Virus record (IMG/VR): IMGVR_UViG_2547132254_000004
Location: 1 to 44,342 of that record
DNA: 44,342 nt
DNA from: a virus
Taxonomy: Duplodnaviria > Heunggongvirae > Uroviricota > Caudoviricetes
Reading direction: 5' to 3' (one strand)
Below are positions 1-42,010 of this stretch, piece after piece. Numbering within the stretch: position 1 is the stretch's first letter; every line of letters starts with the position of its first letter. A program made the position numbers and the translations under genes. The notes beneath the pieces were generated by a model that saw nothing but the letters and a program-made list of their open reading frames with translations, did not search any database and was not told the DNA's origin.

Positions 1-1209
1 ATGTCGGTTTTTCATAACTGGCTGCTTGATATCGCAAGCGGGAATTACTTTATCTACATCAAACGCCTTTCTGCAAACGACACAGGCGCAACAGGTGGCC
101 ATCAGGTCGGACTTTATATCCCCTCAAATATCGTTGAAAAGCTTTTTCCATCTATCAATCATACTCGCGAACTGAACCCTTCAGTCTTCCTTACTGCGCA
201 TGTATCATCCCATGATTGCCCTGATACCCAAGCACGCGCAATTTATTACAACAACCGTTATTTTGGTAAGACCCGAAACGAAAAAAGAATTACGCGCTGG
301 GGGAGAGGAAGTCCATTACAGAACCCTGAAAATACAGGAGCCCTCACAATTCTTGCTTTCAGGTTAAACGAACAGAACACTGACTGTTCCGAGGTAGATA
401 TATGGGTCTGCGTCAATCCCGATGAAGAGGATATCATCGAGTCTGCTATTGGCGAAATCATACCTGGAACCCTAATTTCCGGCCCTGCCGGACAAATTTT
501 GGGCGGATTGTCTCTTCAGCAAACTCCAGTAAATCATAAATATGTTATTCCTGAAGACTGGAAGAAGCGTTTTCCTTCTGGAAACGAAATTATTCAATAT
601 GCTGCTGGCCATTATGCTAAAAACTCCAAGGATCCAGATGAGCAACTGATTGACCGTCGGCGTGTCGAGTATGATATTTTTCTACTCGTCGAGGAATTAC
701 ATGTTCTTGATATTATTAAGAAAGGGTTCGATTCTGTAGATGAGTTTATTGCATTAGCCAACTCTGTCAGTAATCGACGTAAATCAAGGGCAGGTAAATC
801 ACTTGAACTTCACCTAGAGAAGCTTTTTATCGAGCACGGACTACGGCATTTCTCCACTCAGGCAGTTACTGAAGGTAATAAAAAACCAGATTTCCTGTTT
901 CCTTCAGCAGAGGCATATCATAACGCTGAATTTCCTGTAGAAAACTTACGTATGCTGGCAGTAAAGACCACCTGCAAAGATCGCTGGCGTCAGATACTGA
1001 ATGAAGCAGATAAAATCCATCAGGTACATTTATTTACGCTGCAAGAAGGTGTTTCTTCAGCACAATACCGAGAAATGAAAGATGCGGGTGTCAGACTCGT
1101 TGTACCATCAACTTTACATAAAAAATACCCAGAAGCAGTTAGAGAAGAATTAATAACGCTCGGAGCATTCATTACTGAGCTGATAGAACTTTACACTGAA
1201 CTATCATAG
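1..1209 (+). CDS. ecoRIIR: Type II restriction endonuclease, EcoRII family (CCWGG-type)
   Basis: 402-aa ORF starting at ATG pos 1; N-terminus MSVFHNWLL...YIKRLSANDTGATGGHQVGLYIP and overall length match my recollection of R.EcoRII; convergent with a Dcm-type methyltransferase. Identity from memory, not a search. Confidence 0.85.
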   Translation: MSVFHNWLLDIASGNYFIYIKRLSANDTGATGGHQVGLYIPSNIVEKLFPSINHTRELNPSVFLTAHVSSHDCPDTQARAIYYNNRYFGKTRNEKRITRWGRGSPLQNPENTGALTILAFRLNEQNTDCSEVDIWVCVNPDEEDIIESAIGEIIPGTLISGPAGQILGGLSLQQTPVNHKYVIPEDWKKRFPSGNEIIQYAAGHYAKNSKDPDEQLIDRRRVEYDIFLLVEELHVLDIIKKGFDSVDEFIALANSVSNRRKSRAGKSLELHLEKLFIEHGLRHFSTQAVTEGNKKPDFLFPSAEAYHNAEFPVENLRMLAVKTTCKDRWRQILNEADKIHQVHLFTLQEGVSSAQYREMKDAGVRLVVPSTLHKKYPEAVREELITLGAFITELIELYTELS

Positions 1210-1214
1210 GCTGA

Positions 1215-1237
1215 CTCCCGGCTTAAAAGGCCGGGAG
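1215..1237. terminator. Inverted repeat between the convergent R and M stop codons (possible bidirectional terminator)
   Basis: CTCCCGGC-N7-GCCGGGAG stem in the 34-bp gap between stops at 1209 and 1244; no clear U-tract. Confidence 0.4.
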
Positions 1238-1243
1238 GTGTTC

Positions 1244-2677
1244 TCAAGGCTGCCCAGTCTTACCAGCATCAGCAGAAACAGCTTTGAGGATATAGGGTTC
1301 CAGAAGTCTGGCAACGGCTTCAAATACTGGCACCACAACGGAGTTACCGAACTGCCGATATGACTGAGTATCTGAAACCGGAATACGGAATGGTTTCCCT
1401 CCAGGTTTTTCAAACCCCATAAGGCGTGCGCACTCTCGGGGAGTCAGCCTGCGTGGTCGACGAGCCTGGTTACTCTCATTCATAAAGTCAGCCTCTCCCG
1501 TTGCCATATCCCAACCACGATCAATAAGAATTTCTGATCCGTCTTTGTGATATCTGGCAGAAAGTGTGCGTGCAATGCTTTCCTTATTCTCAGGATTGAC
1601 CAACCCAAAGCCAAAACCATTCCCCTTGGCTGCATGCTTTTTGGCGTAGTTATAAAGGTACTCCCATAGTTTTGGCGTAAGTATATATTTACTGTCGACT
1701 ACAGGCTCCAGCAATTCACCAAATGATGGGCGGTGTTCCGGATAAAAACGACTGATATCACGCAAGGTAAACCCCTTGTGAATATTCAGATCTCGTCTAA
1801 ATCCGACCAGAACAATGCGTTCACGATGCTGAGGCAAAAAATGCTTCCCATCGATAATCTTTGGATCGTTTTTTCCCATTTCTGCAGCATCGGCAACTTC
1901 GTAGCCCAGCTCGTCAAGGGTCTCCATAATGACTTTGAAAGTTTTACCCTTATCATGGCTCTTCAGATTTTTGACATTTTCCAGCACAAAAATTGCCGGT
2001 TTTTTTGCTCGTATAATACGTGCCACGTCAAAAAAAAGTGTTCCTTGTGCTTCACATTCAAAACCATGCGCACGACCAAGTGAGTTTTTCTTACTAACAC
2101 CAGCAAGGCTAAATGGCTGGCACGGGAACCCCGCAAGAAGCACATCATGATCCGGCACATGCTCATCAATATATGCATAAGCATCCGTTTCCAATACATC
2201 GGTTTTATCACTCAGCGTGACTTCCCGAATATCGAGATTGAATTTATGCACCTGTTCATCGTTAAACCAGTTGGCCTTGTATGTACGCACAGCATCTTTA
2301 TTCCATTCACTGGTAAAAACACACTGGCCTCCAATGGCCTCAAAACCTTTCCGTATCCCTCCAATTCCAGCAAATAAGTCAATGAAGCGGAAAGCATATT
2401 CCGGATGGTTTGCAGGTGGTTCTGGTAGCATCTTACGCAGAAGAGACTCTTCTACTGAAGTCAACGATTTTGGTAAACACTTGCCATTAATCCAGCGGTT
2501 AATGGTTTCACGGCTCCACTCATTTTTTCCGACTTTTCTCAGTAATTCAGCCACATACTTCTGATCATAGATTTCCAGCACTTTCTCGATAAGCTTTTTA
2601 TCATTTTCCTGTCGCAGCTTTTCTTCCGCCTCGGCTTCCTTCAGCAGATGCTGTGCCAACACTTCAAATTCAGACAT
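1244..2677 (-). CDS. ecoRIIM: DNA-cytosine C5-methyltransferase, M.EcoRII/Dcm family
   Basis: C5-MTase motifs [26 protein letters not shown]. Start placed at ATG 2677 (MSEFE..., 477 aa) preceded by GGAGG; track ORF extends 14 codons further to 2719. Confidence 0.9.
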
Positions 2678-2984
2678 AATTCCTCCAAGGGGTCTAATGG
2701 GTGAAACTTTATCACTCATTCAACCCAGAAGGAAATGTTTTATCTGGATATTTAAACAGTGACTACAACGTAATCTAGCACTGGTGATGCTTTGTTAGGC
2801 ATAGAGAATCATTCTATATACGACTAATGACAGAAAAACAGCAGACAAGTAGTTTGTTCATAAATTAACGCATACTACGTGCCTACGGTTTTCGAGACCG
2901 GTCCAATCATCAAACGAAACATAAAATTAGCTCACATTATGAGGAAAAGTATCTTTTTTGTACTCTGTAAATTCAAAGGCTTAG

Positions 2985-3971
<987 letters not shown>

Positions 3972-4404: not shown

Positions 4405-5470
4405 GTGACGAATGTTTTTGGGAAGAGAATATATACCCTGGATGTTCTGAGAGGATTTGCCGCACTTTCCGTTGTGTTATGGCATTGGCAACATTTTTTT
4501 ATGAAAAAGAATGCTGCATCTGACATAATCATAAACCGCCAACCTTTTTATGAATTTTTTCCGTCTTTTATCATTACGGTTTATATGCTGTCGAATTGTT
4601 TTTTATGATTTCTGGATTCATATTTTTTTATCTATACGCTGACAATATACACAGCAATAAAACCTCAGCAAAAACTTTTATAGTTAACCGTGTCAGTAGA
4701 TTATATCCACTTTATATATTTACATTTGCTGTCGTGGCAATATTACAAATTATTTTCTTTAAAAGTCATAATTATTTTTTGTTTATCCTATGAATGACAT
4801 TTACCATGCCATTCTGAATTTATTGATGATTCAATCATGGGGATTTGAGCGAGGTTGGTCCTTCAACGCCCCGACATGGTCCGTGTCGATTGAAGTACTT
4901 ATGTACATGATATTTTTTATATTATGCAAGTTCACATCAAAAACAACATTCATATCAATTTTAATAGTTGCATTATCGTACTACTTTTTCAAAATTAACA
5001 ATCCCATAATGATCGGCGCATTCTCTTTCTTTATTGGTGGTCTGACTTATAAAATTACGATTGCGGCCATAAAAAATATTAGCGCAAAGTTATTTTTTAT
5101 TTTTGCTTGTGTTTTTCTATTGATCTCATGGGGAGTTATATTTACCCTGCAAGTAGCAGATATATTCTCAATTATCTTATTCGGATTTACCTCCATAATC
5201 TTTTTCCTTGTATCAATTAGCGCAATACGAAACGATTTTGGGAAAAAAATTGAATGGTTGGGCGATATCAGTTATTCATCTTATCTTTTACATTTTCCTT
5301 TGCAAATCATTGTTGTTTATTTAGCTGACAAGATTGGCTATGGACGCGATCTTTTTTACAGCCCCAAGGTATTCATTTTATTCATGCTTACATTAATGGC
5401 AATTAGCTATATGTCATATATATTCATTGAAAAACCATCGCAACAATTCATCCGAGATAAATTTCATTAA
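4405..5470 (+). pseudogene. Acyltransferase family 3 (O-antigen/LPS acetylase-like) gene split over three frames
   Basis: Track ORFs 4405-4608, 4596-4793, 4790-5470 lie in three frames and concatenate to ~358 aa with N-terminal LDVLRGFAALSVVLWH and a WSVSIEV motif; highly hydrophobic; both junctions at T6 runs; GTG start at 4405 preceded by AAGAGG; AT-rich. Confidence 0.6.
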
Positions 5471-12127: not shown

Positions 12128-12805
12128 TTATCTAAAGTTACTTATTACCCGATACCTTATGCTTTGGTTACTCGCATCAAGTACTTCGAATTTAGCCCCT
12201 TTATAGCCAATTGTTTTAGACTCCGCGAGATCATACTCAACATCGTTGTTGAAGGCCGGGCGTGCTGTATTCGATGAAAATTCACGATATCCAATGTTGA
12301 TTTTGTTTCCGACCCTTCCGTTGTAAAGCAGAGCTTGCTGGAAAGATGAATCACCACTGATATTCAGAGTAACCTTTTCGATAGGCATGTTAGTTTCACA
12401 GTTGGTAACACCGAAAACTGTTATTACACATAAGGCATTCTTTTTCTTTTCTACCATGATGCCCTGCCACATATCGGCAAGGGCTGCCTTTTCCACATTG
12501 GCTGAATCAGCACCGTTTGTGAGAAAGTAATAATCAGCCTTGTTATCCTCACCAACCTTTTTCAGCATCCCCGGAGTGATCGTATACGCCCAGGAAATTC
12601 TCGCAGGAGCATTAACCTTCAGACCTTCAAACCTCTGTGACACCCCCTGCTTAATCATTGAATCACCGACATAAGCTGTATTAATGCTTCCTACAGGAGG
12701 TTCACTATAATTTTCTGTTTTTGGTAAATAATTGTACTTCGGAGAGGTACATCCCCCGAGTAAAAGAGCCATGCCGACAACTGAATAAATTGTTAAGACT
12801 TTCAT
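12128..12805 (-). CDS. Predicted lipoprotein, function unknown (moron inside the tail operon)
   Basis: Start placed at ATG 12805 (MKVLTIYSVVGMALLLGGC...) preceded by a purine-rich RBS; signal peptide with LLGGC lipobox; 225 aa; AT-rich by eye; sits between tape measure and gpN, a junction normally contiguous in Mu-like tail clusters. Confidence 0.6.
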   Translation of the reverse strand: MKVLTIYSVVGMALLLGGCTSPKYNYLPKTENYSEPPVGSINTAYVGDSMIKQGVSQRFEGLKVNAPARISWAYTITPGMLKKVGEDNKADYYFLTNGADSANVEKAALADMWQGIMVEKKKNALCVITVFGVTNCETNMPIEKVTLNISGDSSFQQALLYNGRVGNKINIGYREFSSNTARPAFNNDVEYDLAESKTIGYKGAKFEVLDASNQSIRYRVISNFR

Positions 12806-12886
12806 ATCCCTATTCCCATCATTAAAGTATCGGACTAATCCTACCAAGAACCTGCTAAACGACAAAACCCGTGTTTAAGCGGGGTA

Positions 12887-14728
12887 TCAGCCCCCCATAC
12901 CAAATCGGGTGTAGCCAACGTCGTGATTCACGTCGATACCGCTGGATCGCGTTTCCATAACCCGCATACCCGGAGGCGAATTCACAAAAGATACCTTGAT
13001 CTCACCATCAACTTTTGGCGCAGAAGCTTTGTTAATCATGAAGGGATTCGGGCCTGTGGCATTAGAGGCGTTGTTTGACTGAGCCGGATCCACCGCCGGA
13101 TAAGGTGTGTATCCCCGCGCCGGTATTCCCGTCCCATAAGCATCATAAGCACCCGCGCCCCACTGCGCCGAGTTAATGGCATCGACCGTGTCACCGGAAC
13201 TGTCGGTAAGCCACTCAATAATTGGCTTCAGCTTGTCCCACATATCCTGAAACCACTTAACAACCGGCCCCCAGTTATTGATCACCATCCCCAGCGGCGA
13301 CCAGGCAAAAACTTTCTTAAGGAGTTCCCAGCCAGCCTCAAAATAAGGACCAATGGTTTCCCAGAGCTTCTTGAAATAAGGTCCGACAACATCCCAGTTA
13401 GTGATAATTAATCCCGCAGCCAGGGCTATCGCCGTCGCAATCATGCCAATCGGCGTCATCGACATGATCCTGCTGACAATACTGATGGCACTGCCCACGC
13501 CCATCAATCCCAGTTTCAGAATCGCAAGACCGGCAGCAAGCCCGACGACGCCGCGAATAACCCGGGGATTTTCATCCGCAAACTTCGTGAATTTTTCCCC
13601 CAATTCCCCCAGCCATTGCGTGATATTTTTGGCGTCACCAGAAAATACGCCGCCAATAGCCGCAAGGCCGTTAGTTGCGGTCCCCGTCATTGCCTCCCAC
13701 AGGTTGGACAGCGTACCAAGCTGTGCCTGAACACGTTTATTCAGGCTGGCCTGTTTATTCATCTTCTGCTGGATCTGATCGTAGCCATCCTTTCCTTTAT
13801 CGATTAGTGCATTGACCACCTGAAGGGTTTCGGCATCATCACCAAATATTGCCTTAAGTACACCTGTTCGCTTAACGTCGGTCAGTTTTCGCAGCTTTGC
13901 CAGTTGCCTGAACATGTTATCAAGACCGCCAAAACTTCCTTTGCCGTCAGTAAAATCGAGCTGTACCCCGAGTTTCTGGCGGGCCATAACTTTATTAACG
14001 TCTCTGATTTTCTTAACGCTTAACCCGGACTGGATAACTTTTCGCAGGGCATTACCTGCCGACTCCCCGTTCATCCCCATCTGATCCATCATGACGCTGA
14101 TGGGAGCAAGGCTCTGTGCAGCCTGAAGACCGTCCTTATTCACCATCTTCAGAACAGAACTGGTTTTAGTGAAGAAGGACAACATGTTGGTATCGTCAAC
14201 GCCCAGATAAAACGCCTTCTGGATAGTGTCGAACAGCCCCATCATGTCTTCTGACGCCGTTCCGGTAGCATCCTGCATCTTTGCAGCAAACTCAGCAGCC
14301 GCTTCCGGTGTTTTTTTCAGTTGTACCGCAAGATAAGCTGTCGCTTTACCCACACCACCCAGAATGTTTTCTGCCGGGATCCCCTGACGCACCAGCATCT
14401 GCATCATGTTCTGGAAATCAGCCGTTGTACCGGGTAGCTGGTTACCCAGGCCAATAGCCAGTTTATTGATGTCCTGAAAGCGCTTTCCAACCTCGCCGTT
14501 CGCATCCATCATGGCGACTTTCAGCCCGGTGGCGGCGTTTTCCTGATCGGCATAAGATTTCAGGGAAAGCGTCAGACCCGCTGCCAGTCCGCCACCAAGC
14601 GCCAGCCCACCCTGTGACGCTTCTTCCGCCTGGCGTTTAAATCCCCGGATTTTCTTTTGCATTTTCGACAGCGCGGGAGAAAGCCTGTCGACACCGGTGA
14701 TCAACGCCTTAAGCTCAAATTCAGCCAT
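12887..14728 (-). CDS. Tail tape measure protein
   Basis: 613 aa, Ala/Gly/Leu-rich with hydrophobic segments, directly downstream of the frameshifted chaperone pair. Confidence 0.85.
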   Translation of the reverse strand: MAEFELKALITGVDRLSPALSKMQKKIRGFKRQAEEASQGGLALGGGLAAGLTLSLKSYADQENAATGLKVAMMDANGEVGKRFQDINKLAIGLGNQLPGTTADFQNMMQMLVRQGIPAENILGGVGKATAYLAVQLKKTPEAAAEFAAKMQDATGTASEDMMGLFDTIQKAFYLGVDDTNMLSFFTKTSSVLKMVNKDGLQAAQSLAPISVMMDQMGMNGESAGNALRKVIQSGLSVKKIRDVNKVMARQKLGVQLDFTDGKGSFGGLDNMFRQLAKLRKLTDVKRTGVLKAIFGDDAETLQVVNALIDKGKDGYDQIQQKMNKQASLNKRVQAQLGTLSNLWEAMTGTATNGLAAIGGVFSGDAKNITQWLGELGEKFTKFADENPRVIRGVVGLAAGLAILKLGLMGVGSAISIVSRIMSMTPIGMIATAIALAAGLIITNWDVVGPYFKKLWETIGPYFEAGWELLKKVFAWSPLGMVINNWGPVVKWFQDMWDKLKPIIEWLTDSSGDTVDAINSAQWGAGAYDAYGTGIPARGYTPYPAVDPAQSNNASNATGPNPFMINKASAPKVDGEIKVSFVNSPPGMRVMETRSSGIDVNHDVGYTRFGMGG

Positions 14729-14903
14729 GTGTGCGTTTCTCCTGCTCTATCCTGTTTGCCTGACTGACCAGTAAGGGAATTTCACTGATCGGCATATTCA
14801 GCAATTCGAAAGGATTAATGCGCCAGTAGCTGGCGCAGTCAAAGAAGCGATCAGTGAGGTATTCAGCCGTCAGGCCTGGAGGAAAAAACCGGCCACAAGC
14901 CAC
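14721..14903 (-). CDS. Tail assembly chaperone frameshift extension (GT-like -1 frame)
   Basis: ORF overlaps the 3' end of the upstream chaperone ORF; the overlap contains the slippery heptamer U UUU UUC (minus strand, 14882-14888), so translation likely enters by -1 frameshift rather than from the track ATG. Confidence 0.55.
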   Translation of the reverse strand: MACGRFFPPGLTAEYLTDRFFDCASYWRINPFELLNMPISEIPLLVSQANRIEQEKRTHG

Positions 14904-15139
14904 GCCGCTGCATTCAGGTCTGCCGGAGACATCTGGTCGACAGAGCTTTGCGGCACTTTCGCCAGCCGCACAATGTATTTCGACACCACATGCGCCAGAA
15001 GTCTGACGGACTCATCCTGATTCATCTGGTAGGGATACCCCAGCTCGCGGACATCCTTCCCGGTGGGCTCATCAAACTCCAGTACGGAGAGTGTCTCGCC
15101 ATGAGCAGTAATCGGTTTCTTTAACTCAAGCTCTTTCAT
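14870..15139 (-). CDS. Tail assembly chaperone (lambda G-like / Mu gp41-like)
   Basis: 89 aa between tail tube and tape measure; ends ...LVAGFFLQA just past the slippery site. Confidence 0.6.
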   Translation of the reverse strand: MKELELKKPITAHGETLSVLEFDEPTGKDVRELGYPYQMNQDESVRLLAHVVSKYIVRLAKVPQSSVDQMSPADLNAAAWLVAGFFLQA

Positions 15140-15495
15140 TACTGGTAATCCCCTTCTTCACCGTGGAACTCAAGATCAACCGTGCCTTCTTCGGCATTAT
15201 GGTTCGCTTCGCCGTGCAGCCAGGCGGACGACAATACATAGACCTGACCGTTCGCCAGCTCGGCAGTGATGGTCATCTCATCAGACGAGGTGATTTTGCT
15301 CACCGGAAAATTCTTCGGCACCTTGAAGGTCCCTTTGACATAAGGCGCACGGTGAGTTTCCTTGCGGTCCACTGAACCGTCCAGGCCGATGATGTCATCA
15401 TTGACCGTCCTGTTCATGGGCACCTCAATGCCGCCGGTCAGCGATAGCTGCTGACCGTCAATTTTGAAATAACAGGTTCCCCCGATACGGGCCAT
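15139..15495 (-). CDS. Tail tube protein (Mu M-like)
   Basis: 118 aa immediately downstream of the sheath gene. Confidence 0.75.
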   Translation of the reverse strand: MARIGGTCYFKIDGQQLSLTGGIEVPMNRTVNDDIIGLDGSVDRKETHRAPYVKGTFKVPKNFPVSKITSSDEMTITAELANGQVYVLSSAWLHGEANHNAEEGTVDLEFHGEEGDYQ

Positions 15496-38334: not shown

Positions 38335-39663
38335 CTGATGAATCCCCTAATGATTTTGGTAAAAATCATTAAGTTAAGGTGGATACACATCTTGTCATAT
38401 GATCAAATGGTTTCGCGAAAAATCAATAATCAGACAACAAGATGTGCGAACTCGATATTTTACACGACTCTCTTTACCAATTCTGCCCCGAATTACACTT
38501 AAAACGACTCAACAGCTTAACGTTGGCTTGCCACGCATTACTTGACTGTAAAACTCTCACTCTTACCGAACTTGGCCGTAACCTGCCAACCAAAGCGAGA
38601 ACAAAACATAACATCAAACGAATCGACCGATTGTTAGGTAATCGTCACCTCCACAAAGAGCGACTCGCTGTATACCGTTGGCATGCTAGCTTTATCTGTT
38701 CGGGCAATACGATGCCCATTGTACTTGTTGACTGGTCTGATATTCGTGAGCAAAAACGACTTATGGTATTGCGAGCTTCAGTCGCACTACACGGTCGTTC
38801 TGTTACTCTTTATGAGAAAGCGTTCCCGCTTTCAGAGCAATGTTCAAAGAAAGCTCATGACCAATTTCTAGCCGACCTTGCGAGCATTCTACCGAGTAAC
38901 ACCACACCGCTCATTGTCAGTGATGCTGGCTTTAAAGTGCCATGGTATAAATCCGTTGAGAAGCTGGGTTGGTACTGGTTAAGTCGAGTAAGAGGAAAAG
39001 TACAATATGCAGACCTAGGAGCGGAAAACTGGAAACCTATCAGCAACTTACATGATATGTCATCTAGTCACTCAAAGACTTTAGGCTATAAGAGGCTGAC
39101 TAAAAGCAATCCAATCTCATGCCAAATTCTATTGTATAAATCTCGCTCTAAAGGCCGAAAAAATCAGCGCTCGACACGGACTCATTGTCACCACCCGTCA
39201 CCTAAAATCTACTCAGCGTCGGCAAAGGAGCCATGGGTTCTAGCAACTAACTTACCTGTTGAAATTCGAACACCCAAACAACTTGTTAATATCTATTCGA
39301 AGCGAATGCAGATTGAAGAAACCTTCCGAGACTTGAAAAGTCCTGCCTACGGACTAGGCCTACGCCATAGCCGAACGAGCAGCTCAGAGCGTTTTGATAT
39401 CATGCTGCTAATCGCCCTGATGCTTCAACTAACATGTTGGCTTGCGGGCGTTCATGCTCAGAAACAAGGTTGGGACAAGCACTTCCAGGCTAACACAGTC
39501 AGAAATCGAAACGTACTCTCAACAGTTCGCTTAGGCATGGAAGTTTTGCGGCATTCTGGCTACACAATAACAAGGGAAGACTTACTCGTGGCTGCAACCC
39601 TACTAGCTCAAAATTTATTCACACATGGTTACGCTTTGGGGAAATTATGAGGGGATCTCTCAG
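38335..39663 (+). mobile_element. IS10 (IS4 family), 1329 bp, flanked by 9-bp target duplication TGCTTTGCA
   Basis: Ends CTGATGAATCCCCTAATGATTTTGG... and ...GGGGATCTCTCAG match IS10 termini; identical TGCTTTGCA at 38326-38334 and 39664-39672. Confidence 0.95.
38442..39650 (+). CDS. IS10 transposase
   Basis: 402 aa (MCELDILHDSLYQFCPELHLKRLNSLTLACHALLDCKTLTL...) matching the IS10/Tn10 transposase. Confidence 0.95.
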   Translation: MCELDILHDSLYQFCPELHLKRLNSLTLACHALLDCKTLTLTELGRNLPTKARTKHNIKRIDRLLGNRHLHKERLAVYRWHASFICSGNTMPIVLVDWSDIREQKRLMVLRASVALHGRSVTLYEKAFPLSEQCSKKAHDQFLADLASILPSNTTPLIVSDAGFKVPWYKSVEKLGWYWLSRVRGKVQYADLGAENWKPISNLHDMSSSHSKTLGYKRLTKSNPISCQILLYKSRSKGRKNQRSTRTHCHHPSPKIYSASAKEPWVLATNLPVEIRTPKQLVNIYSKRMQIEETFRDLKSPAYGLGLRHSRTSSSERFDIMLLIALMLQLTCWLAGVHAQKQGWDKHFQANTVRNRNVLSTVRLGMEVLRHSGYTITREDLLVAATLLAQNLFTHGYALGKL

Positions 39664-40658: not shown

Positions 40659-40877
40659 GTGGAGAAACATATGCTGAACCTCGATTGTGTTCCAATCTCA
40701 ACTTATTGCAAAGAAACTGGCGAAACTCCTGAAGCAATAAACAAACGTGTACAGCGCGGTGTTTGGCGTGAAGGTGTTCAGGTTTTAAAGGTTGAAGGCG
40801 TTAAGGAGAGGTGGATTGATCTTAGTGAGGTTGCAAAATGGGCCAGACAAAACTGCTCAAACTACCGCGCGGCGTAA
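40659..40877 (+). CDS. Excisionase-like protein
   Basis: 72 aa immediately upstream of and overlapping the integrase start. Confidence 0.5.
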   Translation: MEKHMLNLDCVPISTYCKETGETPEAINKRVQRGVWREGVQVLKVEGVKERWIDLSEVAKWARQNCSNYRAA

Positions 40878-42010
40878 CAATCAGGAAACACCGCCTGGGC
40901 GAAACGATCAATATAACTTTCACCTATAAAGGAGTTAAATGTCGTGAGCCTCTTTCCAATCTGGAAGTAATACCAAAGAACATAAAATACGCCGAGCGCA
41001 CACTCGGCGAAATTCATAATAAGATCGAAAGGGGAACATTCATTTATGCGGAATATTTTCCCCGTTCTGCTCGTTTGAAAATTTTTGGTAATGCTGCTGC
41101 AGGCAAAACGGTAAAAATGTACCTGGACGAATACCTTGAAATCTGCGAAACGAGAAAACTTTCACCCTCTACGATTGGTGGTTATAAAAAATGCCGTAGT
41201 GCGTTAGCCTCACTCCACATTTGCCCTGCAAGTGAATTAACACCAGCAATCCTGAAAGCGTGGATTCAAAGCCAGAAAACGACCTTAAAAACAATTCGCA
41301 ACCAGTTATCTTTCCTGCGGTCAGCACTTGATGAAGCCGTAACCGATGGGGTACTTCAAATTAACCCCGTATCGTTGGTAACTGCTTCGCGCTACCAAAG
41401 TGATAAGTCAGAAGCAGAAAGCAGCTACGTGGTTGATCCGCTATCACCAGCAGAAGTTGATGCATTACTAGCAGCAGCCGGAAACAAACAATGGGAAAAT
41501 CTGTTCCGGTTCGCTATACATACAGGCCTGCGTAGTTCTGAATTATGTGCCCTTCGATGGCGTGATATCGACTTTGTTGGAAAAACTGCCCATGTCCAGA
41601 GCGCAAGTGTTGTCGGTGTTATCAAAGGGACAAAGACAAAAGCAGGTACTCGGAAAGTTGAACTGACAGAAGAGGCAATGTTGGCGCTGATAAATCAGAA
41701 GCCATTTACATTCATGAAGGATGCTACTGTCTTTGAAGATCCAAAGACCAATAAGCCTTGGGCAAGTGCTGATGCAATTAGGAAAAAAGCATGGGTGCCA
41801 ACATTGCGAAAAGCAGGTATTCGTTACAGAAACCCATATCAAACCAGGCATACATTCGCCACCAGCCATATCAGCCGAGGAGCAAACCTGTTTTGGCTTG
41901 CAGCTCAAATGGGGCATAAAGGGCCGGAGATGCTTTTCAGGCACTATGGTTCGTATCTTAAAGAGTATGATAACTTTACATCGATAAATCATTTGCATAA
42001 TCATAATTAA
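40838..42010 (+). CDS. Tyrosine integrase (lambda Int family) of the lambdoid prophage
   Basis: 390 aa with ATG start; C-terminal catalytic region with RHTFATSHISRGANLFWLAAQMGHK...LFRHY; reads toward the ssrA-derived attachment core. Confidence 0.85.
   Translation: MGQTKLLKLPRGVTIRKHRLGETINITFTYKGVKCREPLSNLEVIPKNIKYAERTLGEIHNKIERGTFIYAEYFPRSARLKIFGNAAAGKTVKMYLDEYLEICETRKLSPSTIGGYKKCRSALASLHICPASELTPAILKAWIQSQKTTLKTIRNQLSFLRSALDEAVTDGVLQINPVSLVTASRYQSDKSEAESSYVVDPLSPAEVDALLAAAGNKQWENLFRFAIHTGLRSSELCALRWRDIDFVGKTAHVQSASVVGVIKGTKTKAGTRKVELTEEAMLALINQKPFTFMKDATVFEDPKTNKPWASADAIRKKAWVPTLRKAGIRYRNPYQTRHTFATSHISRGANLFWLAAQMGHKGPEMLFRHYGSYLKEYDNFTSINHLHNHN

What the first reader, a model, noticed from the sequence alone, without database searches (positions are those of the whole stretch)
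14721..15139. Programmed -1 frameshift site (U UUU UUC) in the tail assembly chaperone pair
The two ORFs upstream of the tape measure gene overlap by 34 nt; the overlap contains the canonical slippery heptamer on the minus strand (complement of 14882-14888), and a -1 slip yields ...LVAGFF-PPGLTAEYL..., i.e. a lambda G/GT-type fusion.
Basis: partly seen in the sequence, partly recalled or inferred. Interest (0 to 1): 0.4.

Follow-up and report, generated by a model that had tools for sequence, protein, structure and literature searches.

The report
P2-type tail chaperone frameshift site
Near the end of a small phage tail-assembly gene, a run of U's most likely lets some ribosomes slip back one base and make a longer second protein; this is a well-known phage mechanism (same site as in phage P2), well supported here but missing from public annotations.

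Summary
On the minus strand, GG-T TTT TTC (14888-14882) lies in X XXY YYZ phase five codons before the stop of an 89-aa ORF (15139-14870; Pfam Phage_TAC_7), between the tail tube and tape-measure genes of an SfV-like prophage. A -1 slip gives a 139-aa fusion whose stop overlaps the tape-measure ATG. The heptamer alone is not statistically unusual; the case rests on context and conservation. All 19 distinct relatives (40-100% identity) and five named phages keep an in-phase T TTT TTY and a 50-59-aa -1 extension. The extension is under purifying selection only in the -1 frame (pN/pS 0.24 against 1.2-1.3). GGT TTT TTC lacks synonymous variation although 41 of 46 other conserved codons have it. 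Eleven of 19 relatives have no start codon for a separate second gene. A profile of the fusions aligns end to end with phage P2 E+E' (E 9e-5), with the shift site in the same column, so the closest relative is the experimentally proven P2 E/E+E' shift. Lambda G/GT is only an analogue, and Mu uses -2. No stimulatory RNA structure is conserved. Public records annotate only the short ORF. It is an ordinary, correctly recognised recoding site and a new member of a known kind.

The parts
14870..15139 (-). Short tail assembly chaperone ORF (0 frame), 89 aa, the P2 gpE equivalent. Its ATG overlaps the tube gene stop (TAATG).
   Evidence: ORF list. Pfam PF10109 Phage_TAC_7 at E 1.9e-16, 60.3 bits against a cut-off of 25. 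PGAP names it 'phage tail assembly protein'.
14882..14888 (-). Slippery heptamer U UUU UUC, read GG-U UUU UUC in the 0 frame (Gly84-Phe85-Phe86).
   Evidence: Sequence and phase. Invariant as GG TTTTTTY in 19 of 19 distinct relatives while neighbouring synonymous sites vary. Codons 84-86 are three of only five conserved codons without synonymous variation. Aligns with the annotated P2 E+E' shift site.
14721..14882 (-). -1 frame extension (the E'/T part): 53 codons from the re-read C at 14882 (PPGLTAEYLTDRFFDCASYWRINPFELLNMPISEIPLLVSQANRIEQEKRTHG) plus the TGA stop at 14723-14721.
   Evidence: Translation. pN/pS is 0.24 in this frame against 1.32 and 1.20 in the other two. A 50-59-aa homologous extension is present in all relatives. 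It matches phrog_32181 at E 4e-40. It aligns with P2 E'.
14721..15139 (-). Predicted frameshift fusion CDS, join(15139..14882, 14882..14721) on the minus strand, 139 aa (the P2 E+E' equivalent).
   Evidence: The profile of 14 such fusions aligns over residues 4-130 with residues 7-135 of P2 E+E', E 8.8e-5.
14870..14872 (-). 0-frame stop codon (TGA) of the short product, 9 nt after the heptamer.
   Evidence: Its distance from the heptamer start varies from 16 to 49 nt in the genome loci and reaches 70 nt in ST64B, phiP27 and SfIV, so it is not part of a conserved signal.
12887..14728 (-). Tape measure protein gene (613 aa). Its ATG (14728-14726) overlaps the stop of the fusion (ATGGCTGA), and an AGGAG lies upstream inside the extension's coding sequence.
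   Evidence: ORF list. PF10145 PhageMin_Tail at E 5e-27. Junction sequence.
15139..15495 (-). Tail tube protein gene (118 aa), directly upstream. By analogy with lambda, the tube protein is the presumed partner of the -1 frame extension.
   Evidence: PF10618 Tail_tube at E 2.4e-33.

Best explanation
This is a programmed -1 ribosomal frameshift of the phage P2 E/E+E' type in the tail assembly chaperone gene of an SfV-like temperate myophage.

Most ribosomes translate the 89-aa chaperone and terminate at the UGA at 14872-14870. A minority slip when tRNA-Phe occupies the P site on UUU and the A site on UUC of GG-U UUU UUC. Both tRNAs re-pair one base back on UUU UUU. This is fully cognate, because E. 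coli's single tRNA-Phe(GAA) reads both UUU and UUC (established knowledge). Translation then continues in the -1 frame for 53 codons and ends on a UGA that overlaps the tape-measure ATG, giving a 139-aa fusion.

By analogy with lambda gpG/gpGT, the short form would coat the tape-measure protein. The rarer long form would do the same and also recruit the tube protein through its extension, so the fixed ratio would be set by slip frequency.

Shown here: the anatomy, the phase, conservation, frame-specific selection, absence of a conserved independent start, and homology to P2 E+E' at the same site.

Inferred: that slippage is ribosomal, its frequency (probably in the per-cent range), and the chaperone roles of the two products.
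For: - Anatomy and phase.
- Family and synteny: PF10109 at 60 bits, flanked by the tube (PF10618) and tape-measure (PF10145) genes.
- Conservation: all 20 genome loci (19 distinct sequences, 40-100% aa identity, from Enterobacteriaceae to the betaproteobacterium Derxia) have an in-phase TTTTTTC/T and a 50-59-aa -1 extension with the motif FDCA.YWRINP...QANRI, while the +1 frame is closed after 7 nt in the window.
- Named phages: ST64B, phiP27 and SfIV (T TTT TTT), Pantoea AH07 and Burkholderia BgVeeders33 (T TTT TTC) all give 138-142-aa fusions; the extension stop overlaps the tape-measure start in the first four and lies 3 nt before it in BgVeeders33.
- Synonymous sites: the flanking codons vary (GCC/GCT/GCG/GCA before, CTC/CTG/CTT after) but GG TTTTTTY never does. 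41 of 46 invariant-residue codons show synonymous variation, and three of the five that do not are GGT TTT TTC.
- Coding frame: pN/pS downstream of the 0-frame stop is 0.24 in the -1 frame against 1.32 and 1.20.
- No separate gene: 11 of 19 relatives have no ATG/GTG/TTG in the -1 frame upstream of the heptamer.
- Homology: hhalign of the fusion profile against P2 E+E' gives E 8.8e-5 over the full length, with VAGF aligned to VVGF. P2's annotated -1 site is GGT TTT TTG, with E 91 aa, E+E' 142 aa, and the stop overlapping the T start.
- Literature: the P2 shift is established and has no downstream structure (PMC3091744, citing Christie 2002 and Xu 2004). The G-T type shift is conserved in long-tailed phages (PMC5009743). 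U_UU.U_UU.C is shift-prone in E. coli: 0.12% unstimulated and up to 7.6% with a pseudoknot (PMC4066793).
Against: - There is no experimental evidence for this phage or for any SfV/ST64B-group member. I found no paper reporting it.
- The motif alone gave only 0.12% in a reporter, and no stimulatory structure at 5-9 nt is conserved, so an efficiency useful for assembly is assumed, not shown. However, the lambda and P2 motifs also give only 0.28% and 0.12% in that reporter, yet work at about 3% or more natively.
- The G-F-F residues are conserved, so part of the nucleotide conservation is forced by the protein. Only the GGT and TTT codon choices are free evidence.
- Sequence alone cannot separate ribosomal from transcriptional slippage.
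- Similarity to P2 E+E' is remote: hhalign probability is 60% and BLASTP is not significant.
Confidence: 0.88

Rival explanations
1. Transcriptional slippage: RNA polymerase occasionally adds one U on the T6-7 run, producing a subpopulation of mRNAs in which the two ORFs are fused in frame. Translation itself is standard.
For: The site is a homopolymer run, and one extra U would give exactly the same 139-aa protein. A weak terminator-like hairpin abuts the run in the window. Several relatives fold a hairpin ending 0-4 nt before the run.
Against: The run is short (6 T in most relatives, 7 in some). To my knowledge, efficient bacterial slippage needs longer runs. The upstream hairpin is not conserved: 64.0% of cells are paired against 62.6% in shuffles, 158 of 500 shuffles are as high, and +/-3 slides give 56.6%, which is a codon-periodicity effect. 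Upstream fold z-scores run from +1.0 to -1.8. The homologous P2 site is described as a translational frameshift.
Confidence: 0.05
2. Two independent genes: the 60-aa ORF (14903-14721) is translated on its own from the GTG at 14903, as annotated in ON470584 and collected in phrog_32181.
For: A GTG exists 15 nt upstream of the heptamer in the window. One phage record annotates it as a hypothetical protein, and a PHROG family exists for it.
Against: 11 of 19 distinct relatives have no ATG, GTG or TTG anywhere in the open -1 frame upstream of the heptamer. In the eight that do, the start-type codon (GTG, ATG or TTG) falls at a single position, 15 nt upstream of the heptamer, and the 16 nt before it show no evident Shine-Dalgarno. 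The internal Met of the extension is not conserved. This reading would not explain the synonymous-site freeze on GGT TTT TTC or the full-length alignment with the P2 fusion.
Confidence: 0.03
3. Chance heptamer and a non-functional open frame: the gap before the tape-measure gene is non-coding and the run of T's merely encodes Phe-Phe.
For: In-phase slippery heptamers are common (49 in about 12,300 codons). TTTTTTC is over-represented in the window. GenBank, RefSeq and PGAP leave the 141-nt stretch unannotated.
Against: There is frame-specific purifying selection on the stretch (pN/pS 0.24). The -1 frame is open and homologous in every relative down to 40% identity, and in most it ends at the tape-measure start. 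It is homologous to P2 E'.
Confidence: 0.02

Closest known systems
Phage P2 gpE / gpE+E' (-1 frameshift in the FETUD tail operon; Christie et al. 2002, cited through PMC3091744 and PMC5009743; RefSeq NC_001895 features P2p25/P2p26)
   Same: Same Pfam family for the short protein (PF10109 'E, or 41 or 14'). Same position between the tube and tape-measure genes. Nearly the same sizes (91 and 142 aa against 89 and 139 aa). Same site context (GTC GGT TTT TTG against GCC GGT TTT TTC), falling in the same alignment column (VVGF/VAGF). The second ORF has no start of its own. The fusion stop overlaps the tape-measure start. No downstream hairpin.
   Different: The last base of the heptamer is C (or T in relatives) rather than G, so the A-site tRNA is tRNA-Phe re-pairing cognately rather than a tRNA-Leu. 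Sequence identity is very low, detectable by profile only. The rest of the tail module here is Mu-like (sheath similar to Mu gpL, DNA_circ_N, GpP-type hub) rather than P2-like. There are no experimental data for this group.
Phage lambda gpG / gpGT (-1 shift at G GGA AAG; Levin 1993 and Xu 2013, 2014, cited through PMC5009743)
   Same: Same logic and genomic position: a small chaperone gene before the tape-measure gene, a low-frequency -1 slip near its end, a fusion sharing the N terminus, and no requirement for a stimulatory structure.
   Different: No sequence relationship was detected; the only significant Pfam hit is PF10109. The heptamer and tRNAs differ. Lambda has a siphovirus tail, this phage a contractile one. 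The functional model (G coats the tape measure, T binds the tube protein) is transferred by analogy only.
Phage Mu gp41 (Mup41) chaperone with a -2 frameshift (Xu 2004, cited through PMC5009743)
   Same: Same gene position in a homologous tail module (Mu-like sheath, tube, DNA circulation protein and baseplate hub).
   Different: Mu gp41 is 144 aa and shows no detectable similarity (hhalign E 0.43). Mu reaches the +1 frame by a -2 shift. Here the +1 frame closes after 7 nt and the -1 frame is the one conserved. This Mu-like tail module therefore carries a P2-type chaperone cassette.

Membership tests
P2 gpE/gpE+E'-type tail assembly chaperone (Pfam PF10109 Phage_TAC_7) | Short product matches the family profile above the curated threshold | tested here: met
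   PF10109 at E 1.9e-16, 60.3 bits against a cut-off of 25, covering residues 4-86 of 89.
P2 gpE/gpE+E'-type tail assembly chaperone (Pfam PF10109 Phage_TAC_7) | Gene lies between the tail tube gene and the tape-measure gene | tested here: met
   The order is tube 15495-15139, chaperone 15139-14870, tape measure 14728-12887, all on the minus strand.
P2 gpE/gpE+E'-type tail assembly chaperone (Pfam PF10109 Phage_TAC_7) | In-phase T TTT TTN heptamer near the 3' end, at the position homologous to the P2 site | tested here: met
   Phase. P2 site. VAGF aligns with VVGF in hhalign. The site is invariant in 19 of 19 relatives.
P2 gpE/gpE+E'-type tail assembly chaperone (Pfam PF10109 Phage_TAC_7) | A -1 frame extension of about 50 aa without its own start, under coding selection, homologous to E' | tested here: met
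   The extension is 53 codons. pN/pS is 0.24 in the -1 frame only. No start codon in 11 of 19 relatives. It aligns with P2 E' within the full-length hhalign hit, E 8.8e-5 but probability only 60%. hmmscan found no significant Pfam hit for the extension alone.
P2 gpE/gpE+E'-type tail assembly chaperone (Pfam PF10109 Phage_TAC_7) | Both products are made in vivo from one start, and both are needed for tail assembly | not testable with these tools
   Requires protein analysis and genetics. No publication on SfV-group phages was found.
Canonical -1 programmed ribosomal frameshift signal | X XXY YYZ heptamer in the 0-frame phase that allows both tRNAs to re-pair | tested here: met
   GG-U UUU UUC. 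The motif is classed as shift-prone in E. coli (PMC4066793).
Canonical -1 programmed ribosomal frameshift signal | Stimulatory hairpin or pseudoknot 5-9 nt downstream, or an SD-like element upstream | tested here: not met
   Only a 4-bp hairpin lies at spacer 5 in the window, with fold z of 0.15-0.23. The alignment consensus is -4.4 kcal/mol with no covariation. By inspection, an SD-like GGGAG appears upstream in only two relatives (L018, L019). This feature is not required in the phage G-T/E-E' class.
Lambda gpG/gpGT family | Sequence membership in the lambda-type chaperone family and a G GGA AAG site | tested here: not met
   hmmscan at E up to 1 returns only PF10109 for the fusion, and the heptamer differs. 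It is a functional analogue, not a member.
Mu gp41-type chaperone (-2 shift) | Similarity to Mu gp41 and a conserved extension in the +1 frame | tested here: not met
   hhalign E 0.43. The +1 frame extension is 7 nt in the window.

The most novel reading that the evidence does not exclude
The SfV subfamily may carry an unusual distal RNA element that tunes the frameshift, or couples it to tape-measure translation. An approximately 76-nt structure starts 24 nt after the heptamer: a 10-bp long-range stem (14857-14848 with 14791-14782) enclosing an 8-bp hairpin (14837-14819). It is far more stable than synonymous recodings of the same peptide (z -2.9 to -4.2 in five subfamily members). More broadly, P2-type sites would then owe their reportedly high native efficiency, despite 0.12% for the bare motif in a reporter, to a stimulator not yet recognised, such as the conserved nascent peptide W-x-V-A-G-F-F or a distal structure.
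Probability: 0.1. Interest if true: 0.45.

Novelty: new member of a known kind. Interest (0 to 1): 0.2.

Why it matters
The biology is textbook. The conserved chaperone frameshift of long-tailed phages was established for lambda and P2 and surveyed by Xu et al. 2004, so a specialist would not be surprised.

The practical value is in annotation. The 139-aa fusion is absent from the SfV, SfI, SfII, SfIV, ST64B and phiP27 records I checked. It is also absent from the two PGAP-annotated E. coli prophages I inspected, and the region occurs in 1,086 of 5,426 complete E. coli genomes. In one record its second half is called a separate hypothetical protein, and that ORF has its own 'unknown function' PHROG.

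The analysis also shows that a Mu-like contractile tail module can carry a P2-type (-1, U-run) chaperone cassette instead of Mu's own -2 type, which is a small example of mosaicism within a tail operon.

Tried and rejected
- **Heptamer statistics as evidence.** Rejected. In-phase slippery heptamers and TTTTTTC are common in this window.
- **Downstream stimulatory structure at canonical spacing.** None was found in the window, in the 17-sequence alignment or sequence by sequence including P2.
- **Upstream terminator-like hairpin that would favour transcriptional slippage (flagged).** Not conserved and indistinguishable from shuffles.
- **Rfam scan of the region.** Only a sub-threshold CRISPR-repeat chance hit.
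- **In-frame 'natural fusions' in the protein database (P0001-P0006).** They change frame at scattered positions. The two I traced (P0002, P0003) sit on short 5-6-kb contigs, one at 2.4-fold coverage. I dismissed them as assembly errors.
- **IMG/VR loci.** All 80 were 100% identical at the protein level and uninformative.
- **Structure prediction.** The fusion without an alignment gave pLDDT 47 and was unusable. The 89-aa protein with 13 sequences gave pLDDT 64, and its Foldseek search of the PDB gave nothing below E 6. A profile search of PDB sequences gave only a chance hit.
- **NCBIfam.** No model matches the short protein, the fusion or the extension.
- **Primary papers.** Christie 2002 and Xu 2004 are not held, so I could not check whether Xu et al. 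already list SfV.
- **Sharma et al. 2014.** Their conserved-frameshift clusters do not include this one.
Full report
**What the window is.** The region is 99% identical to Shigella serotype-converting phages SfV, SfI and SfII and to E. coli phages vB_EcoM-689R6 and SKA5. Other ORFs in the window match an integrase, an IS transposase, a large terminase, an HK97-type capsid protein and baseplate J. On the minus strand the order is:
- sheath, 16991-15495;
- tube, 15495-15139 (PF10618);
- an 89-aa ORF, 15139-14870 (PF10109 Phage_TAC_7, 60 bits);
- tape measure, 14728-12887 (PF10145);
- then, further on, Mu-type DNA circulation and GpP hub genes.

**Checking the observation.** All stated features are present.
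- TTTTTTC lies at 14888-14882 on the minus strand.
- The 0 frame reads GCC GG-T TTT TTC CTC CAG GCC TGA, so the heptamer is in X XXY YYZ phase.
- The ORF called from the GTG at 14903 overlaps the upstream ORF by 34 nt.
- A -1 slip yields ...LVAGFF-PPGLTAEYL... and a 139-aa product.
- The product's TGA (14723-14721) overlaps the tape-measure ATG (ATGGCTGA).
- The -1 frame is in fact open from 15011, so the 34-nt figure depends on the ORF-calling convention.

**Is it more than chance?** The heptamer alone is not. In-phase slippery heptamers occur at 49 of 12,287 codon positions in the window's long ORFs, and TTTTTTC occurs 27 times. The evidence has to be comparative.

**Comparative evidence.** A pattern scan of one genome per species returned 20 loci (19 distinct sequences) at 40-100% protein identity, ranging from Shigella and Edwardsiella to Derxia, a betaproteobacterium.
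- Every locus has TTTTTTC or TTTTTTT in the same phase, followed by an open -1 frame of 50-59 codons with a shared motif (F/Y)FDCA.YWRINP...QANRI.
- In most loci the -1 frame ends at or overlapping the tape-measure start.
- The 0-frame stop drifts from 16 to 49 nt after the start of the heptamer.
- The +1 frame is not conserved as open; in the window it closes after 7 nt.
- Aligned on the heptamer, GG TTTTTTY is invariant. The preceding Ala codon appears as GCC, GCT, GCG and GCA, and the following Leu codon as CTC, CTG and CTT.
- In the 12-sequence ungapped subgroup, 41 of 46 codon columns with an invariant degenerate residue show synonymous variation. Three of the five that do not are the consecutive codons GGT TTT TTC.
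- Downstream of the 0-frame stop, pooled pairwise pN/pS is 0.24 in the -1 frame against 1.32 and 1.20 in the other two frames. The stretch that GenBank, RefSeq and PGAP leave empty therefore encodes protein, in the -1 frame.
- Eleven of the 19 distinct sequences have no ATG, GTG or TTG in the -1 frame upstream of the heptamer, so independent initiation cannot be the conserved mode of expression.

Named phages outside the closest group behave the same way. ST64B, phiP27 and SfIV have CG-T TTT TTT, and Pantoea AH07 and Burkholderia BgVeeders33 have GG-T TTT TTC. The extensions are 52-54 aa and the fusions 138-142 aa. None of these records annotates the shift.

**Closest known system.** RefSeq P2 annotates E (91 aa), E+E' (142 aa, joined CDS) and the site of the -1 translational frameshift.
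- The P2 sequence is GTC GG-T TTT TTG TCG, and the E+E' stop overlaps the T (tape measure) start.
- A profile of 14 fusion sequences from this family aligns with P2 E+E' over residues 4-130 against 7-135 (E 8.8e-5, probability 60%).
- VAGF falls opposite VVGF, and the two extensions align (D.A..W..P.E....L....A.R). BLASTP alone sees nothing.
- Mu gp41, the chaperone of the phage whose tail genes otherwise resemble this module, is unrelated (E 0.43). According to Atkins et al. 2016 it uses a -2 shift.
- Lambda G/GT is a functional analogue. No lambda-type chaperone family appears among the Pfam matches.

The precise relative is P2 E/E+E', sitting in a Mu-like tail operon.

**Mechanism.**
- Shown: anatomy, phase, conservation, coding frame, lack of a conserved start, and homology to an experimentally established site.
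- Inferred: tandem slippage of tRNA-Phe in the P and A sites from UUU UUC to UUU UUU. Both pairings remain cognate because E. coli's one tRNA-Phe(GAA) reads both codons (established knowledge).
- Published motif data: Sharma et al. 2014 place H_HH.U_UU.Y among the most efficient E. coli motifs. For UUUUUUC they measured 0.12% without a stimulator, 0.89% with the IS911 stimulators and 7.6% with the IS3 pseudoknot.
- Calibration: in the same reporter the lambda and P2 motifs give 0.28% and 0.12% unstimulated. Natively, lambda G:GT is about 30:1, and P2 is reported two- to three-fold higher. Bare-motif reporter values therefore underestimate native phage sites, and the efficiency here cannot be predicted. 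I assume the per-cent range.
- The division of labour between short and long forms is transferred from lambda and is not tested.

**Stimulatory elements.**
- At canonical spacing the window has only a 4-bp hairpin, and the 60-nt fold has z = 0.15.
- The 17-sequence alignment gives a consensus of -4.4 kcal/mol with no covariation.
- Sequence-by-sequence folds show no consistent hairpin, and none in P2. This agrees with the literature on P2-like phages.
- The weak terminator-like hairpin upstream of the U run, which could have pointed to hairpin-assisted transcriptional slippage, is not conserved: 64.0% of cells paired against 62.6% in shuffles.

**An unexplained structure further downstream.** A 10-bp long-range stem (14857-14848 with 14791-14782) encloses an 8-bp hairpin (14837-14819), beginning 24 nt after the heptamer.
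- The 120-nt fold has z = -3.1.
- The stems are kept at 7-10 of 10 pairs in the close subfamily and lost in diverged relatives.
- In five subfamily members the native segment is much more stable than synonymous recodings of the same peptide (z -2.9 to -4.2). This does not hold in L014, L016, L018, L019 or L023, and L017 and L025 are borderline (z -2.0 and -1.7).
- It is too far from the site for a canonical stimulator and is not a family-wide companion of the heptamer. Its members are related, so it may reflect a single evolutionary event. I record it as unexplained.

**Rivals.**
- Transcriptional slippage cannot be excluded by sequence. It is disfavoured by the short run, the lack of a conserved hairpin and the P2 precedent.
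- Two separate genes is contradicted by the missing start codons.
- Chance or non-coding is refuted by the selection and conservation data.
- A Mu-like -2 shift is excluded by the closed +1 frame.

**Annotation status and novelty.**
- SfV in GenBank and RefSeq lists only orf13, leaving a 141-nt gap.
- PGAP lists only a 'phage tail assembly protein' of 89 aa in the two genomes I inspected. The region is present in 1,086 of 5,426 complete E. coli genomes.
- One phage record calls the second half a hypothetical protein, which corresponds to phrog_32181, 'unknown function'.
- The large protein database contains no clean fusion, only indel-ridden contig artefacts.
- I found no paper reporting the shift for this phage group, and it is not among the clusters of Sharma et al.. 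The Xu et al. 2004 survey, which may list it, could not be read.

**Verdict.** This is a well-supported but ordinary recoding site: a new, unannotated member of a well-known kind, of low interest beyond fixing the annotation.

Noticed in passing
window 14782-14857 (minus strand): Subfamily-specific RNA structure inside the -1 frame extension: a 10-bp long-range stem (14857-14848 with 14791-14782) around an 8-bp hairpin (14837-14819), starting 24 nt after the heptamer. It is much more stable than synonymous recodings of the same peptide in the SfV-like subfamily (z -2.9 to -4.2) but absent in diverged relatives. Function unknown.
   Followed up: partly
window 12128-12865 (minus strand): A 245-aa ORF lies between the tape-measure and DNA-circulation genes, where SfV has only a 45-nt gap. 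Its N terminus looks like a lipoprotein signal (…LLLGGC). It has no Pfam family, no match in 50,697 phage records, and is present as 'hypothetical protein' in 55 of 5,426 E. coli genomes. It looks like a moron inserted in the tail operon.
   Followed up: partly
window 1-2719: An EcoRII-type restriction endonuclease (1-1209, +; EcoRII-N and EcoRII-C domains) and a C-5 cytosine methylase (1244-2719, -) sit at the left end of the window, next to the prophage tail-fibre end. I did not determine whether this is prophage cargo or flanking host DNA.
   Followed up: no
window 3956-3962 (+), end of ORF 3030-3971: An in-phase A AAA AAA lies 13 nt before the stop of a GIY-YIG-domain ORF, with a 49-codon open -1 frame behind it. 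This is probably chance. I made no conservation check.
   Followed up: no
window 4790-5470 (+) and 38442-39650 (+): An acyltransferase-3 ORF matches only positions 105-320 of the 326-position profile, so it may be a truncated O-antigen acyltransferase. A DDE transposase (IS) sits inside the prophage near the integrase gene at 40838-42010.
   Followed up: no
L110 (ST64B), L111 (phiP27), L112 (SfIV), L113 (Pantoea AH07), L114 (Burkholderia BgVeeders33): These published phage genomes have the same unannotated -1 site (T TTT TTT or T TTT TTC) and 52-54-aa extensions. Their records list only the 0-frame ORF.
   Followed up: yes
proteins P0001-P0006 (metagenome and Logan contigs L108, L109): Database 'fusion' proteins of 107-139 aa that look like in-frame chaperone fusions change frame at scattered positions. 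The two I traced (P0002, P0003) sit on short contigs, one at 2.4-fold coverage. They look like assembly or indel artefacts, not natural fusions.
   Followed up: yes
whole window, both strands: TTTTTTC is over-represented: 27 copies against 12.3 +/- 3.8 expected from dinucleotide-preserving shuffles. Motif counts alone cannot flag recoding sites in this genome.
   Followed up: no
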